This document shows positions 12,315 through 57,558 of a stretch of 64,000 nucleotides of DNA, piece by piece. Location of the stretch: positions 96,534,001 to 96,598,000 of the forward strand of contig OX597820.1 of the NCBI GenBank assembly GCA_951406725.2, given 5' to 3'. Under the pieces are notes generated by a model. That model was not told the origin of the DNA and did not search any database. It saw nothing but the letters and a program-made list of their open reading frames with translations. The position numbers and the translations under genes were made by a program. The stretch is from Octopus vulgaris (Eukaryota). How positions within the stretch are numbered: position 1 is the first letter of the stretch; the number at the start of each line of letters is the position of its first letter.

Positions 12315-12385
12315 CTACTACTACTACTACTACTACAGAAAACACTCGGCGAGAAACGGAAGAAAATTTGAAGAAAGAAGGAAAT

Positions 12386-12458
<73 letters not shown>

Positions 12459-12459
<1 letters not shown>

Positions 12460-13167
12460 ATTTCCTTCTTTCTTCAAATTTTCTTCCGTTTCTCGCCGAG
12501 TGTTTTCTGTTCACCTAGGGCAGAGAAGCTCATTGTATGCAGATTACACACGCAAATTCACAGGTAAAATATGTATTTATAAAATTAATAAATAAATAAA
12601 TTCATGAATGGATGTTGCTTTCACAGCGATAATGCTCTTCTCAGTAAATGAGTCGTTCCAGTTAACACGACTTTTTGCACTTCCTGTAAGGATGGTAAGC
12701 CTGGTATCATTTTCAAATAGGTTTCAGTACCTTTTTATTATCATTCCTAGAGATCCTACAATCATTGGGACTGTAGTCGCCTTGAGATGCCACATTTTTT
12801 AAAATTTCTATTATCAAGTCTTTATATTTACTGATCTTGTCAAATTCTTTCGCCGCTATATTGTGATCACGAGGAATACTCATGTCAATTAATAAACACA
12901 ACTTTTTTGTCTGATCTTTTATAATAGTATCCGGTTTATTAGCTTTTATAGTTTTGTCGGTATGTACGGAAAAGTCCCATAGAATCGACATATTTTCTCC
13001 CTCAGTCATAGCTTCAGAACGATGTCTATACAATTTGTCAACGGTTTTGATTTTATAATGCCGACATATTGTCCAGTGTAAATGCTGACCGACTCTGTCA
13101 TGTCTTTCTTTATATTCTACAGGTGCTAAGACTCTTCACTCTGAGATTAGGTTGTCTATAGTTTCAA
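12459..13167 (-). mobile_element. R4/Dong-type LINE 3' fragment, third family
   Basis: Translation EYKERHDRVGQHLHW...ILWDFSVHTDKTIKANKPD...LIDMSIP...KISKYKDL...QKVVLTGTTHLLRRAL, then a 3' UTR ending in (TAC)n. Confidence 0.9.
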
Positions 13168-28493: not shown

Positions 28494-28543
28494 TAGTATC
28501 ATTATTTATCGTTTGCTATTATTGTTTATCATTGCTTTTCTTT

Positions 28544-28605
<62 letters not shown>

Positions 28606-28650
28606 AAAGAAAAGCAATGATAAACAATAATAGCAAACGATAAATAATGA

Positions 28651-28655
<5 letters not shown>
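28494..28655. repeat. Perfect 53-bp inverted duplication around a (TA)n(CA)n spacer
   Basis: 28494-28546 is the reverse complement of 28603-28655. Confidence 0.9.
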
Positions 28656-35767: not shown

Positions 35768-36670
<903 letters not shown>

Positions 36671-36706
36671 TTACATCTCCGTAATATATATATATATATA
36701 TATATC

Positions 36707-39619: not shown

Positions 39620-43912
<4,293 letters not shown>

Positions 43913-44924: not shown

Positions 44925-45189
44925 TACAAACATATATGTACGTACCTACATCTACATGTATATATACATGCATATATAAATATATATACGTGAGTACAGG
45001 ACACCACAACTAGACGTAGAACTCAACGAGAAAAAATGGCGTTTCCGTTTTCGTTTCTCGTTGAGTTCTACGTCTAGTTGTGGTGTCCTGTACTCACGTA
45101 TATATATTTATATATGCATGTATATATACATGTAGATGTAGGTACGTACATATATGTTTGTATGTATGCATATATTTTATTTATTACAC

Positions 45190-51139: not shown

Positions 51140-51900
51140 AAAATCTTGCAGATTTTTATTGTTATAGATATTATGATCATTTGTAGCGTATGAATTAGGA
51201 GTCAAGGAGTTGCATTCTCTCCCCCAAGAACCCAAGTCCAGCCATACTTTGCTCCAGACGAGTTGGTACCTATCTTGTTGCTCCAATAATAATAGATATG
51301 AGGCTTGGTCTATAGATGTTACCTTTCTCTTGTATATTTCTGACCACACTGGTGTCCAGAGAACAACCGACGCAAAACAACTTTCACTAATATACTTTTG
51401 ATTTACCGGTTTCAATATAATCAACTTCGTCTGTTGGTGTTTTCTTTTTTTTTTTTTATCCTGTTCCACATTGTTCTGGCCACTGCATCATGCCTCATGG
51501 GAAGATAATATCTAAGAGTCATTTTCTCATTGTTGGATTTAATGTGGTCCGTGCCTTCAGTTTTGGTTTTGAGCGACTTACATTTGTTGTCTGTCAAGCC
51601 GCTCTGCGTTTTCTTGTGTTCCAATCTACATTTTTGTCACTTATTCTTTTCCTCGCCTTTCATTCTCTTTCATTATTTTTGTTGACTCCATTATTTCATG
51701 TATTTCTCCATCTCATATTGTGCCTGAAACTGAAACTTTCATTTCTATAAATCTACCGTGCTGAATAATTCAGTGAAAGCTGAATAATTGATCTCATGAT
51801 TTAGATCAAGAACTACGTCATTTGGTTTGTAGTAGTGATCCTAACTAAGCAGCTGCTCTAAAATCTATGGGTTGATGACATTGCAGCATTGGTCTTCAAA
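51140..51900 (-). mobile_element. Degraded RLE-type LINE relic (related pieces at 53540-53770 + and 58190-59690 -)
   Basis: Zinc-knuckle region DNKCKSLKTKTEGTDHI...KMTLRYYLPMRHDAVART. The same motif appears at 53580-53700. Confidence 0.65.
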
Positions 51901-52057: not shown

Positions 52058-52373
52058 ATTGCAGCGTGGAAGGTGTTTGTAAGCCATTTAAGAAACACAC
52101 AAAAGCCGTTCGATTCACTTCAACATTTAAGTTTAATTTGTCAAAATATTTTCGTCGCTTTAAGATCGCGACCTATTCACTGACAAAAATCCGTGCTGCA
52201 TCTCTTTTTGTCAGTGAACAGGTCGCGGTCTTAAAGCGACGAAAATATTTTGACAAATTAAACTTAAATGTTGAAGTGAATCGAACGGCTTTTGTGTGTT
52301 TCTTAAATGGCTTACAAACACCTTCCACGCTGCAATTGTTTTCGTTTCAGCGCACGATCTCAGATCAAGTCAC
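52058..52373 (+). mobile_element. Palindromic mini Penelope-like element (copy 2)
   Basis: 132-bp arms 52058-52189 and 52205-52336 (2 mismatches), a 37-nt 3' extension, and a 15-bp direct repeat TTTATATTCATTGCA at 52049 and 52374. Confidence 0.85.
52207..52257 (+). ncRNA. Minimal type I hammerhead ribozyme, G3-C8 core variant (antisense copy 52137-52187 has G3-U8)
   Basis: TTTGTCA-GTGAACA-G-GTCGC(ggtcttaaa)GCGAC-GAA-AATATT-T-TGACAAA, with a 7-bp stem I and a 5-bp stem II. Confidence 0.75.
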
Positions 52374-53043
52374 TTTATATTCATTGCAAGCAATCAATGT
52401 GTATTTTGTTAGAACATCTGTATGTAGCATTCTGATTTGTTGCCAAGTTTAAAAAGAATTTGAATGCATGCACTATTTTGCTTCCAAGTAGACAAGTGGC
52501 CCGAATCCTTGAAGAAAATAAATAACTGTAGGCGTAATTGTCTGGTTTGACAAACTTTTGGGGCTAATAGATTAGAGAGAAATATTTTTTTTATGCTTCT
52601 GGGTGCATGAAGGAAAAAAGTAACCCCCGATTCTGAAACTGAACATAATTGATTATTGTTATGTATGCTGTTCTTTAGTTAGGTAGCAGCTTCGGTGCAT
52701 TAGTTGCAACTGCTTGGTGATAATCATCATCATTGTTAGGTGTCTCACGCCGTAGTTAATGATAAAGATCGTCGCTTTGGTTCAGTTTAAGGCCTAACGA
52801 CGGAATTCCATTTTCTTGCGGATACCCTTCTTTGTCCTCAATGGCAATAAATATTAAGCTGAAAATGGCATCCTTTTAATCAACTTTGATTATAAAAAAT
52901 TTCGATTTTGAACCCGGTGTCTGAAGTTTTCAGATCTTGTCTGTGATTTTGTCATAATGCAAACAGTTTACAAATAACCACAAACTTCCATCAACATTAG
53001 GAACAAAACTCAGAAGCTGAGTGGTGATTTTGAGGATGCTGCT

Positions 53044-53436: not shown

Positions 53437-54361
53437 TGAGGATACTGCTTCTGTTGTGGCGGCCACGCACTGTAGTGCAGTCAGTGATAGTAATGGAAGA
53501 GAATGAAAAGAGGGGAAAATAATAAGTGAAAAACAATTACACAATGAAGCACGAGAAAATGAAGAGCGGCTTTGACGGACAACAAATGTAGGTTGTACAA
53601 AACCAAAACTGAAGACATCGACCACATTATTTTCCAGCTTTGAGAAAATGACTCTTAGATATTATCTTCCTATGAAGCACGGTGCAGTGGCCAGAACGAT
53701 GTTGAACAGGATAAAAAAAATTAAATACTAACAGACAAAGTTGGTTATATTGAAACCAGTAAGTCAAAAGAATGTTGGTCTCACTAAAAGCAAACCTTTT
53801 CTCTCACGGTTTGTTTTGGACTATTCACAAATTCGAATCATGGTTTAGAGAATGTATTTAGAGTTGTATTGTTTTGAAGCAAGTGTCTGTTGCCAATCAT
53901 TTTAGTCAGTAGAATAGACTTTATCCATTTCCCTGGGGCACGCATGCACATAAACAGACACATACATACACACACACACATACACACACAAGATAGCAAA
54001 TTCAATGTAACAGTGATCGATATAGATTTCACAGCCGGATCGTTATTTGTCTTCTATTAACACTATGTCACTAGTGTCGGAGGTTTTACTTAGAAACTCA
54101 CGAAGACTCCGAAGAACCAAAGAAAGAAGTGAATGACTTAACGTACTTTAGTGTCAAAAATATATTTAACAAGTTTTACTGTAAAAAAAAAACATTGGAA
54201 GTGAAATATCTTAATTGGCCATAAGGTTAAATAATATAGTCTCACTAAAAGCAAACGTTTGGTTACTCGACCTACAAGATATAGCAGCCAAATGTTTCTC
54301 AAATGACATCCTGCCAACTAAAAAACAGAGACGAACATACTGCATAATGTTTTTTCAGATA

Positions 54362-54578: not shown

Positions 54579-55467
54579 TATACTATTTTATGTCATATGA
54601 CAAAGGCGGGATGGTCACAGCTAATATTATTGGATCAGGGTTGATCTGGGACTGTAATGTTATGTCGTGATAGCAGAGTTGGTAGAGCACCAGACTATAT
54701 TTACTTCTGTCCCATTAAGTTCTGAGTCCATATCTGACCAAGCTCAACTTTTTTATTTCGTAAATACGTGAGATAAATAGCTATCAGTAATAAAGTAGTT
54801 GTAGATTAAAGTTACTGTAGCACTATTCCCTACAATATTTTGCCCTACAACTGATAATGCTTACTGAAATTTGGTGACATTTAATATTGAACATCATAAT
54901 ATCTATTTTCTTGGCCGTTATGGAAATCGTGTCGTGCATCTCATATCTACTTATATCAAGATTGGTAGAAACATAATCAGCCTGTCAGTTTCTCAGATAT
55001 GAGAGATTGAAGAAAGCTTTTAGCAAGATTTATTATTATCAATCCTATCTGCTGTTTATATTAGGGAACCTATGCATATTTATATGGTTTCAGAATGTTC
55101 TATAAATATACTTATGTTTAATAATTTATCAAAACTAATATCTGCTAATTTGTTTAACATCTGTTATGCACGTAATTGTTTCAGTAAGATTCACAATGTT
55201 CTCAGTATACATATGTAGTCATTAGCAAATACGAACGTAGGACGTAAATGTGGAGCAATTACTAAATTAATACAGCGCTAAATTTATTCCAGTATTTGCT
55301 TAACTCTGGTTATCTACAGAAACGACAAGGATCTAAATTAGACAGCGTGATTCTTGCTTCATTGAATGTGAATCAGAAATTATTAGATCCAACTTCAACA
55401 TTCTTGGTGGATATGTTCACAACTTTTAACCACAAAATTATTTTAGGATAACATTAAATATACATTT

Positions 55468-55723
55468 CGTTTTGGGATTTGGTTTGCAAGATTCTTTATA
55501 TGAGTTCGTGTGTTGAAGCATATACTGTTGTGTCTGGGGAGAGTCATTTTCTTTTTGTGCCTTATAATATAACACACTCACCAGATAGTCAAAACTATTG
55601 AAAAGGTTGCAAGACGCAACGAAAATTTTAGGAAAATAAAAATAAGAAAAAAGTGGAAATTTGACCGGTGAGTGTGTTATATTATTAGGCACAAAAAGAA
55701 AATGACTCTCCCCAGACACAACA
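55468..55723. mobile_element. Second family of palindromic mini Penelope-like element
   Basis: 57-bp arms 55526-55582 and 55667-55723 (1 mismatch), and an 18-bp direct repeat AACATTAAATATACATTT at 55450 and 55720. Confidence 0.75.
55595..55631 (+). ncRNA. Hammerhead-like motif, U3-A8 core variant (weak stem I)
   Basis: CTA-TTGAAAA-G-GTTGC(aagac)GCAAC-GAA-AATT-T-TAG. Confidence 0.55.
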
Positions 55724-56666
55724 TTAAATATACATTTTAATATAAAGTTAGCAACACTATGTACACTCAGTATGACCGAATGATTAAGAAGTTCGCTTTG
55801 CAACCATGAGGTTTCGGGTTTGATCCCACATGACGGCATCTTGTGCAAATGTCATAATTTATAACCTCAAGACGGTCCTTACAACTGATAATGCTTACTG
55901 ACATTAGGTGACATTTAATATTGAACATCATAATATCTATTTTCTTGGCCGTTGTGGAAATCGTGTCGTGCATCTCGTATCTACTTATATCAAGATTGGT
56001 AGAAACATAACCAGCCTGTCAGTTTCTCAGATATGAGAGATTGAAGAGAGCTTTTAGCAAGATTTATTATTCTCAATCCTATCTGCTGTTTGTATTTGGG
56101 AACCTATGCATATTCATAAGGTTTCGGAATGTTCTGTAAATATGCTTAATAATTTATCAAGACTAATATCTGCTAAATTGTTTAACATCTGTTATGCACG
56201 TAATGCGATATAATGGTTTGTGTATTTACAAATTAACGATATTTTGAAATAAACGCAAAAAAGCTGATTGACTTTTAGACAAGCATACAAACCTTTTCCG
56301 TTTGATGTTAAAATTCCATTCTTTCAACAAAATTTCTCTCAACCCTAGAAGCTAACGAAATACTCCAGTTTGCAATAAATATTTCAAGTATTCGTTAGCC
56401 TTTAGCGTTGAGTTATAAAATATGACTGTCTATATTCATAGTTATATCAGACACTGTCTTGTCGCCAAAGTCCGGTGTTTGGAAATTTACTGATATTTCT
56501 CAACGTTTAGACCTTAATTTAGCTACAATTAATCATCTCAGGGTGAAAAATAACTTTGTTGCCTGAATATTAACAATGATATTGTAATTGAAATATGTTA
56601 ACTGTCTGAAATTACCAACATGGCTGTAAACTATTATTTATTCTTACTTTTCTTTCTTATTTTCAG

Positions 56667-57558
56667 CTTGAAAAGAAGACTCACTATGAACACAAATCGA
56701 ACAGCGACTCGAATTACTTCAGTTCTTCGTCGATCATCTACCAAGCGTGTTCTTACTGGTCCTCGACTCAGACAAACTATACGACCCTGCGTAGACGCCT
56801 GCGAAGAGCAAGGACTGTTGTCTGCCATCGAAAAGTGTCATCATGCATGTGTGATGAAGCATTTAATCGGAGGAGATTCCCCTGATGTAGGAACAACAAA
56901 GGATGACATGCCCGTAATTTTAGCTTGTAAAAATCCAGAGATTCTCGAACTGCTTTTAGAATTCGGATGCGACATCAATCGAACACCCAAAGCTGATACT
57001 TCTATTCCATCAAAAAGAACACCTTTGCATTTTGCTGCAGAGTATGGGTACTTAACAAGTGTGAAACTCTTAATTCATTACGGAGCTAATGTCGATGCTC
57101 ACGATGCAAATAACATCACTCCGTTAATGCTGGCCTGGGACAAATCGCAGGACCATGTAGCAGAGTATCTCCTGAGTGTCTACCTTCGTGACAAAAAAGC
57201 TGGCTCTTGGGGACACCATGCTCTGATGCAGTCGTGTCAGAATGGTCAATTAGATTTTGTTCAAATGTTAATTGTCAAGGGACACGTGAATCCTAATGCA
57301 CATGACCAATACGATGGTTCAACGCCTCTGATTGCTGCAGCTAAATTTGGACATATAGAAATTGTTAGATTTCTTCTAACTCGAAACGTTGATGCTACAT
57401 ATCGTGATAAACTACGAAATTTTACAGCTGGAGATTATGCAAGTGTCAATGGACATCGAGAATGCTGGCTTGTATTGCAAGAAGCCTCAGAAGATCTTAA
57501 AGAAGATATAATAGTGGTTGTTCAAACTACAAATACTCCCCAAGAAATTGTCAAATAA
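56667..57558 (+). CDS. Ankyrin-repeat protein, terminal coding exon (about 5-6 ANK repeats)
   Basis: Intact ORF with RTPLHFAAEYGYLTSVKLLIHYGANVD, ITPLMLA and GSTPLIAAAKFGHIEIVRFLL. A strong acceptor TTCTTACTTTTCTTTCTTATTTTCAG ends at 56666. Confidence 0.92.

What the first reader, a model, noticed from the sequence alone, without database searches (positions are those of the whole stretch)
55450..55737. A second mini-element family with a U3-A8 core gives double covariation
Seen: an element with unrelated arms but the same architecture (57-bp inverted arms, one-sided extension, 18-bp target duplication overlapping an arm) contains TTGAAAAG-GTTGC-aagac-GCAAC-GAAAAT. Aligned with GTGAACAG-GTCGC-loop-GCGAC-GAAAAT from 52 kb, the differences outside the loop are two compensatory pairs: core 3-8 G-C to U-A and stem II C-G to U-A. 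Inference: this covariation supports the fold and suggests a lineage of PLE hammerheads that has sampled non-C-G pairs at 3-8. Stem I here is only 3 bp and the palindrome is AATT, so this copy may be dead.
Basis: partly seen in the sequence, partly recalled or inferred. Interest (0 to 1): 0.8.

Follow-up and report, generated by a model that had tools for sequence, protein, structure and literature searches.

The report
Penelope retroelement fragment with variant hammerhead
This is a short, doubled-back insertion left by a Penelope-type jumping gene, probably in an octopus genome, and it carries a self-cutting RNA motif with an already described core variant, while its sister family in the same window carries a rarer variant.

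Summary
In detail: 57-bp arms (1 mismatch), an exact 18-bp target duplication, a one-sided tail and the motif. It is a truncated, inverted pseudo-LTR insertion of an endonuclease-bearing Penelope-like element (PLE). The arms are not unrelated to the 52-kb element: both encode the same ORF start, which leads to Octopus proteins and to 29 longer RT proteins of PLE type. Covariation is stronger than reported: all 8 differences in 30 aligned columns fall in 4 compensatory pairs (3-8, one in stem II, two in stem I), though from only two lineages. In thousands of contigs from two runs, no listed variant touches U3, A8 or stems I-II (22 rows hidden). The 'probably dead' reading is unsupported: 3-bp stem I, AAUU and U17 are normal for PLE hammerheads. 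U3-A8 is published, including the same core in a Schistosoma PLE. What may be new is the sister family's natural G3-C8 pair (2 loci), which I did not find in print. Cleavage is untested.

The parts
55450..55467 (.). Left copy of the 18-bp target-site duplication; its last 3-4 nt also match the element's tail end (priming microhomology, inferred)
   Evidence: family coverage begins at about 55464-55465 (loose ends)
55464..55525 (-). PLE 'tail': about 60-nt extension present only on the inverted copy; AC-rich, lies inside the ORF start (about codons 8-28)
   Evidence: tail concept
55526..55582 (-). Inverted, more strongly 5'-truncated pLTR copy (left arm, 57 bp)
55464..55547 (-). First 28 codons of the PLE ORF (ATG at 55547, minus strand), homologous to the N-termini of P0004, P0007 and the 52-kb/36-kb family
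55583..55586 (.). Junction between the inverted and sense copies (differs from most family contigs at 55586)
55587..55723 (+). Sense 5'-truncated pLTR copy: hammerhead motif, A-rich spacer, ATG at 55702, ending one base after the codons for LPRHN
55595..55631 (+). Minimal type I hammerhead motif: stem I 55595-97/55629-31, U3 55598, A8 55603, bulged G 55605, stem II 55606-10/55616-20, G12 55621, palindrome AAUU 55624-27, U17 55628 (predicted cut after 55628)
   Evidence: layout compared
55720..55737 (.). Right copy of the target-site duplication; first 4 nt shared with the element's 3' end
52058..52381 (+). Sister family A insertion (132-bp arms, tail on the sense copy, 15-bp duplication 52049-63/52374-88); motif at position 3 = 52214 is G3-C8, the antisense copy (52180) is G3-U8
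36392..36672 (+). Second family A insertion, between TA repeats; motif at position 3 = 36505 is G3-C8

Best explanation
The element is one genomic copy of a high-copy Penelope-like retrotransposon family (B), with C-terminal GIY-YIG endonuclease inferred from relatives, reduced to its pseudo-LTR. How the copy arose (inferred): the PLE protein nicked an AT-rich target on both strands 18 nt apart. Each 3' end annealed by 3-4 nt to the RNA at one of two internal start sites in the ORF start, one just after the LPRxN codons and one about 60 nt further on. Two short cDNAs ran towards the 5' end of the RNA, stopped early and were joined head to head, giving arms, one-sided tail and overlapping duplication. 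What the motif does (inferred): it is the pLTR's minimal hammerhead. Two motifs in a tandem transcript pair through the AAUU palindrome to build stem III and cut after U17, slowly and probably with help from the PLE protein. U3-A8 replaces C3-G8 isosterically. The fold was kept by selection while families A and B diverged (shown as covariation between two lineages). This single copy has one motif only, so it could act only in trans and is most likely a passive by-product.
For: Shown. (1) Peptide homology B vs A: local score 38, p 2e-4 (residue shuffle) and 9e-4 (random window peptides); best of 36 frame pairs (next 27); codon-position identity 9/14/8 of 16. (2) A profile of the three window peptides found P0002 (Octopus bimaculoides), which led to P0004 and P0005 (O. 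sinensis, O. vulgaris) and to 29 proteins of 680-1222 aa. All 29 have YVDD and TDKS, 28 have a GLRKDHK-type motif, 9 a YIGET-type motif. Weak Pfam RVT_1 in 4 of 26 and GIY-YIG in 4 of 26 scanned. (3) The B peptide scores 56 against the N-terminus of P0004 and 49 against that of P0007 (0 of 10000 shuffles reached either), above every internal 40-mer score (at most 36) in 32 proteins. (4) Arm ends lie 16 nt (B) and 15 nt (A52) after the start of the L codon. (5) 8 of 8 differences lie in 4 compensatory pairs; placement null 3.6e-5. (6) Run X1 laid 18,723 contigs and X12 10,096. Only 2 of 40 listed variant rows fall in 55595-55631 (loop 55615; position 15.2 at 55625). The per-kind counts for X1 account for all T changes outside the motif, so U3 has no alternative at 4% or more in that run (my inference). 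Literature: architecture, two internal RT starts, tail and protein-assisted cleavage, min-HHR consensus.
Against: No cleavage data. The dimer hammerhead fold of B is weak: -5.4 kcal/mol against a cofold minimum of -15.6, versus -25.4 against -30.6 for A52. The monomer fold shows mainly stem II, z -1.7 to -1.8. Covariation rests on two lineages, i.e. one comparison. Two-sequence BLASTP saw no peptide alignment. No family B protein was found, and tblastn found no RT remnant in the window. All Pfam RT/EN hits are below curated cut-offs. Raw-read runs do not show the abundance: X23 laid 0 reads, X24 68, none over 55564-55627. 22 variant rows were hidden, including one A>G and one A>C in X1 that could be at A8. 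No coverage step at the predicted cut site, so most copies came from uncut RNA.
Confidence: 0.78

Rival explanations
1. Family B is a dedicated short non-autonomous PLE derivative (SINE- or retrozyme-like RNA that starts just upstream of the hammerhead), copied in trans by a PLE protein, rather than truncated copies of a full-length element.
For: 8 of the 15 joints shown land at 55587-55598, just 5' of the motif (biased by where this copy starts). Both sense copies of family A also begin a few bases 5' of stem I. No B protein found. Non-autonomous PLE derivatives are described.
Against: Loose ends show 60-105 contigs in X12 running on upstream of 55587/55594 (median 31-64 nt). The ORF start keeps a coding-type substitution pattern. 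Copies are single and inverted, not tandem like non-LTR retrozymes.
Confidence: 0.25
2. The motif keeps its fold because the PLE protein or another factor binds it (or it marks a splice or start site), and it no longer cleaves to any useful degree.
For: Weak dimer energy. In the anole PLE, hammerhead mutants did not affect insertion in vitro, and no RNA ends were found at the cut site. No step at the cut site here. Both families read MAG|GT across positions 8-10.2.
Against: Covariation includes the tertiary 3-8 pair, which matters in the catalytic conformation. U4, G5, A6, A9, G12-A14, A15.1-U16.1 are unchanged between families.
Confidence: 0.25
3. A MITE-like DNA transposon or foldback element with a chance hammerhead-like stretch.
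For: Short, high copy number, inverted arms, no ORF longer than 28 codons. AT-rich DNA makes TTGAAAA common. The same pattern gave 35 chance-like hits in metagenomes.
Against: Arms are not terminal on both sides and vary in length between copies. The duplication overlaps the element ends. The peptide links to RT proteins. Only 2 of the 35 metagenome hits satisfy both the 3-8 and stem II pairs (about 2 expected by chance), and neither has the palindrome, whereas all three window hits do.
Confidence: 0.03

Closest known systems
Minimal type I hammerheads (min-HHR) in pLTRs of metazoan PLEs, especially the Schistosoma mansoni Cercyon U3-A8 variant (Cervera and de la Pena 2014, PMC4209133)
   Same: Row Sm(4) of Fig. 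S3 has the same seven core letters at positions 3-9, a bulged base before G10.1-C11.1, a 4-nt palindrome, U17 and a 3-bp helix I; about 1,300 U3-A8 hits reported. The Crassostrea row has the same AAUU/U17/3-bp layout.
   Different: Different host and apparently a different PLE lineage (TDKS/GLRKDHK RT with Cys linker; clade not tree-tested). The bulge is G (1 of 56 rows, Nasonia, by my count; consensus H). The sister family has G3-C8, seen in 0 of 56 rows.
Inverted/partial-tandem PLE insertions with a one-sided 30-40-bp tail (Craig et al. 2021, PMC8557442; Frangieh et al. 2024, PMC11167929)
   Same: Inverted 5'-truncated copy, optional tail lying between two RT start sites within the ORF start, AT-rich target.
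   Different: Tail is about 60 nt in B (about 37 in A); start sites lie 22 and 84 nt into the ORF rather than 111-118; the hammerhead lies 81 nt (B) or 66 nt (A) upstream of the ATG instead of overlapping it.
EN+ PLEs of the Neptune/Nematis type (Cys-rich linker before a C-terminal GIY-YIG)
   Same: Relatives have a single ORF of about 800-1200 aa with RT, a Cys-rich linker and a YxGET motif near the C-terminus; linker described.
   Different: No reference Neptune or Nematis sequence was available to place them; family B's own RT was not found.
Natural C3U/G8A hammerheads (Perreault et al. 2011, PMC3088659)
   Same: Natural U3-A8 covariation, stated to be active in vitro.
   Different: That section mentions no natural G3-C8 pair.

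Membership tests
Penelope-like element (EN+) | PLE-type RT with C-terminal GIY-YIG in one ORF | tested here: inconclusive
   Absent from this truncated copy and the window. Reached indirectly: B peptide matches the N-termini of P0004/P0007, whose relatives have YVDD (29 of 29) and weak GIY-YIG hits.
Penelope-like element (EN+) | pLTR that includes the 5' end of the ORF | tested here: met
   ATG at 55702 (+) and 55547 (-), 28 codons homologous to PLE N-termini.
Penelope-like element (EN+) | Inverted 5'-truncated copy and one-sided tail | tested here: met
   definition.
Penelope-like element (EN+) | Clade assignment (Penelope/Poseidon, Neptune, Nematis, Hydra) by RT tree | not tested
   No reference set in hand; the supplement searched held no GLRKDHK sequence. 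The Cys linker points to Neptune/Nematis.
PLE minimal type I hammerhead | Core N3-UGA-N-N8-A and GAAA..UH with a Watson-Crick 3-8 pair | tested here: met
   U3-A8, U17; U3-A8 accepted as a variant.
PLE minimal type I hammerhead | Bulged base between 9 and 10.1, G10.1-C11.1, stem II | tested here: met
   the bulge is G, while the published consensus is H with one G row.
PLE minimal type I hammerhead | Palindromic 15.2-16.2 and short helix I | tested here: met
   AAUU palindrome, 3-bp helix I with 2 compensatory pairs against family A; consensus.
PLE minimal type I hammerhead | Self-cleavage as a dimer | not testable with these tools
   Only energies computed; the B dimer fold is weak.
Rfam hammerhead families | Match to a covariance model | tested here: not met
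   No hammerhead family among 20 hits at E<=10.
Non-LTR retrozyme | Tandem repeats with a hammerhead in at least two consecutive units | tested here: not met
   One motif, inverted layout; definition.
MITE | Fixed terminal inverted repeats at both ends | tested here: not met
   Left arm is internal by about 60 nt; arm lengths vary.

The most novel reading that the evidence does not exclude
Two sister PLE lineages, probably of Octopus, have both left the C3-G8 core pair, one to U3-A8 and one to a natural G3-C8, while keeping U17 and a bulged G. G3-C8 was otherwise seen in my searches only as an engineered rescue. If both are family-wide and cleave, they are a natural double-mutant cycle showing that selection keeps the catalytic conformation of PLE hammerheads. 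They would form a sub-class missed by CUGANGA descriptors and by Rfam here, possibly present in thousands to about 1e5 copies per genome.
Probability: 0.4. Interest if true: 0.58.

Novelty: new member of a known kind. Interest (0 to 1): 0.38.

Why it matters
Whether PLE hammerheads need to cleave is open: in the one purified system, catalytic mutants did not change insertion. Two homologous lineages that differ by four compensatory pairs, one of them the tertiary 3-8 pair, argue that the active-site geometry was under selection. They offer natural substrates for a direct test. Practically, descriptors fixed on C3-G8 and Rfam miss these motifs, and such insertions can be mistaken for MITEs. U3-A8 itself is not new, so the element in the finding is mainly a well-supported new example; the G3-C8 sister is the part that may be new.

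Tried and rejected
No whole genome is held, so no copy-by-copy consensus or R-scape-type test was possible. Rfam: no hammerhead. Motif pattern in viral contigs: 0; in metagenomes 35 hits, read as chance. Two-sequence BLASTP of the peptides: nothing (one search used the wrong frame; the right one). Search with the 40-aa B reading for longer proteins: none (weak evidence). P0001 and P0003 from the profile search are repeat proteins and were set aside as chance. ESM Atlas for P0002: no hit at 0.9 or more. PLE relatives in viral contigs: none; in prokaryote genomes one contig, L036, a probable eukaryotic contaminant, with no hammerhead in it. No RNA holder listed. Raw reads: X23 gave no test; X24 did not cover the core. 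The MAFFT alignment A4 mis-registers the 3' side, so pairs were counted by script. Earlier scan findings: nothing by sequence or place; 8 of 225 word matches were listed, none on this family. 'Dead because stem I is 3 bp' was rejected. Lunse et al. 2017 is not held.

Full report
1. Observation. The stated features are all there. The arms are 55526-55582 and 55667-55723 (57 bp, one mismatch), the exact 18-bp duplication is at 55450-55467 and 55720-55737 (0 of 2000 local shuffles), and an extension of about 60 nt lies on the left only. A hammerhead descriptor that allows any Watson-Crick 3-8 pair finds three sites in 64 kb: 36505, 52214 and 55598. Eight shuffles gave 0-2 hits each and one in total with a 5-bp stem II. 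A relaxed scan adds the antisense copy at 52180, which has G3-U8. Rfam lists no hammerhead at 55540-55700 among 20 hits at E up to 10, nor among the 150 of 224 window rows shown.

2. The arms are related. Read on the minus strand from the ATG at 55547, arm plus tail give 28 codons; the 52-kb and 36-kb elements give 22 codons from 52307 and 36598. They share the pattern LPRxN-x3-F-x2-R-x2-IK. Local score 38, p 2e-4 against residue shuffles and 9e-4 against random window peptides; it is the best of 36 frame pairs (next best 27); identity by codon position is 9, 14 and 8 of 16. The 36-kb copy scores 32 (p 0.006 and 0.002). Against this, two-sequence BLASTP reported no alignment. A profile of the three peptides found three proteins; two are repeat proteins that I set aside, and P0002 is an Octopus bimaculoides protein starting with the family A peptide. 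P0002 led to P0004 (O. sinensis) and P0005 (O. vulgaris). P0005 led to 29 proteins of 680-1222 aa: 29 of 29 with YVDD and TDKS, 28 of 29 with a GLRKDHK-type motif, 9 of 29 with a YIGET-type motif. Pfam gave weak RVT_1 (4 of 26 scanned) and GIY-YIG (4 of 26) hits, all below the curated cut-offs. Their consensus has a Cys-rich linker before YxGET, the mark of Neptune/Nematis-type PLEs; I made no tree. That these RT motifs are PLE hallmarks is recalled. The family B peptide scores 56 against the P0004 start and 49 against the start of the 815-aa P0007; no shuffle of 10,000 reached either, and the best internal 40-mer in any of 32 proteins scores 36. So both elements are pLTR fragments of related endonuclease-bearing PLEs, and the window is probably from an Octopus (inference from these named records). 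Family B's own RT was not found.

3. Covariation. With homology fixed by the ORF, I aligned 30 columns (three pairs of stem I, core, bulge, stem II, GAA, 15.1, 16.1, 17). B and A52 differ at 8, and all 8 lie in four compensatory Watson-Crick pairs: 3-8 (U-A vs G-C), stem II pair 3 (U-A vs C-G), stem I pair 2 (U-A vs C-G) and stem I pair 3 (C-G vs U-A). The palindrome is 4 nt in B and 6 nt in A, palindromic in both. This is one comparison between two lineages, and the descriptor itself required the 3-8 and stem II pairs, so the two stem I pairs and the palindrome are the independent part.

4. The family. Twenty listed runs in 11 studies hold part of the stretch, 13 with half its words or more; none is on record as RNA. 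I laid four. X1 gave 18,723 contigs and X12 10,096, with summed depth 1-3.5 million (X1) over most of the element against 22 on the left flank. The tool warns that this is not a copy number, and overlapping short contigs inflate it, so I read it only as thousands to about 1e5 copies. Coverage starts at about 55464 and stops at 55723. Of 40 variant rows shown (22 hidden), 2 lie in 55595-55631: loop C>T at 55615 (21% and 9%), which adds a pair to stem II, and A>G at position 15.2 (1% and 14%). In X1 the per-kind counts (T>C 2, T>A 4, T>G 1) are all matched by listed rows outside the motif, so U3, U4 and the U's of the stems and palindrome have no alternative at 4% or more there (my inference). 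One A>G and one A>C in X1 are hidden and could be at A8. Joints (15 of 145 shown) connect inverted copies of many lengths to sense copies, 8 of 15 landing at 55587-55598. So the layout is made anew at each insertion and is not a fixed MITE. No step in coverage or loose ends appears at the predicted cut after 55628. Against the abundance: raw-read run X23 laid 0 reads and X24 68, none over the core; I cannot explain this and do not use these two runs as support.

5. How it works. Shown: layout, ORF homology, covariation. Inferred from Frangieh et al. (both strands nicked and extended, AT-rich targets, two internal RT starts bounding the tail) and Craig et al.: nicks 18 nt apart leave two 3' ends, each matching the RNA by 3-4 nt. 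One primed at the distal start (84 nt into the ORF) and gave the inverted copy with tail; the other primed at the proximal start (22 nt in) and gave the sense copy; the two truncated cDNAs were joined. The proximal end lies 16 nt after the start of the L codon in B and 15 nt in A52, i.e. at the same place. In A52 the tail is on the sense copy, the mirror outcome, which fits the report that either start is used on either strand. The motif is the pLTR hammerhead, expected to work as a dimer through its palindrome, slowly and perhaps protein-assisted. The computed dimer fold of B is weak (-5.4 against -15.6 kcal/mol cofold minimum), so protein help would be needed. U17 in both families avoids a Watson-Crick trap between positions 3 and 17 (inference from the 3-17 mispair discussed).

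6. Comparison. U3-A8 was reported in nature in 2011 and in Schistosoma Cercyon PLE hammerheads in 2014, about 1,300 hits. In that paper's Fig. S3, by my count, position 3 is C in 53 of 56 rows, U in 3, G in 0; helix I is 3 bp or less in 29; the bulge is G in 1. Row Sm(4) has the same seven core letters as family B, U17 and a 3-bp helix; the Crassostrea row has AAUU, U17 and 3 bp. So family B is a new member of a known kind and nothing in its layout marks it as dead. G3-C8 appeared in my searches only as an engineered change: a partial rescue in the anole PLE and an unpublished remark. A search for hammerhead, retrotransposon and octopus listed four papers, none on this by title or abstract, and the 2026 O. 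vulgaris repeat paper has no mention of hammerheads. The library lacks most subscription papers, and Lunse et al. 2017 on PLE hammerhead variants is not held (title seen), so the novelty of G3-C8 is provisional. It rests on two loci, with a third copy reading G3-U8.

7. What I read. PMC4209133: main text parts 1-2 of 4, supplement file 2 parts 1-2 of 3 plus a term search; file 1 was not searchable and figure images were not seen. PMC11167929: parts 1-2 of 4. bioRxiv 10.64898/2026.07.22.740005: part 1 of 5 (supplements closed). PMC3088659: passages and section 8. PMC8557442: passages and one supplement search. PMC6765202, PMC13282606, PMC3884650, PMC8967140: passages only. Unseen supplements of the 2011, 2014 and 2017 papers could hold a natural G3-C8.

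8. Verdict. Real feature; PLE pLTR fragment with a minimal hammerhead motif (about 0.9), catalytic in the element's life cycle (about 0.6), new member of a known kind; interest 0.38. The most novel open reading is the U3-A8/G3-C8 sister pair (probability 0.4, interest 0.58).

Noticed in passing
window 55603-55607 and 52219-52223; 52205-52214: Both motifs read MAG|GT across positions 8, 9, bulge, 10.1, 10.2 (splice-donor-like), and in family A a pyrimidine run ends in CAG with G3 as its last base (acceptor-like). A splice constraint could explain the bulged G and the non-G at position 8; no matching acceptor was obvious in B.
   Followed up: no
run X24 on window 55465-55544: Loose ends on both sides show the same 25-27-nt spacer leading back to 55465, i.e. 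a tandem repeat built from this family's tail and ORF start.
   Followed up: no
window 55625: Position 15.2 is A>G in 14% of X12 depth; one T>C row in X12 is hidden. If it is at 55626 the palindrome is kept, a within-family covariation.
   Followed up: partly
window 55593: Most family contigs have G here (63% and 76%), which would place a tandem GA/AG mismatch directly after the 3-bp stem I and might extend it.
   Followed up: no
P0004: The O. sinensis gene model fuses a family A PLE N-terminus to a methyltransferase domain; probably an annotation chimera.
   Followed up: no
L036: A 2.7-kb contig of a bacterial MAG encodes a frameshifted PLE RT/GIY-YIG relative, probably host contamination.
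   Followed up: partly
window 56602-57558 (+): 318-aa open frame with ankyrin-like repeats (recalled pattern, not scanned), about 0.9 kb from the element.
   Followed up: no
window 54843-55176 and 55877-56204: The element sits between two 93%-identical copies of a 330-bp local duplication.
   Followed up: no
window 51386-51693 and 53473-53779: Inverted pair of 80%-identical fragments around the 52-kb element; reads like the C-terminal part of a non-LTR retrotransposon (recalled motif).
   Followed up: no
window 12335-12510, 28494-28655, 41165-41326, 43116-43277, 44925-45162: Other fold-back structures, three of them built around microsatellites; none carries the hammerhead motif or the LPRxN peptide.
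   Followed up: partly
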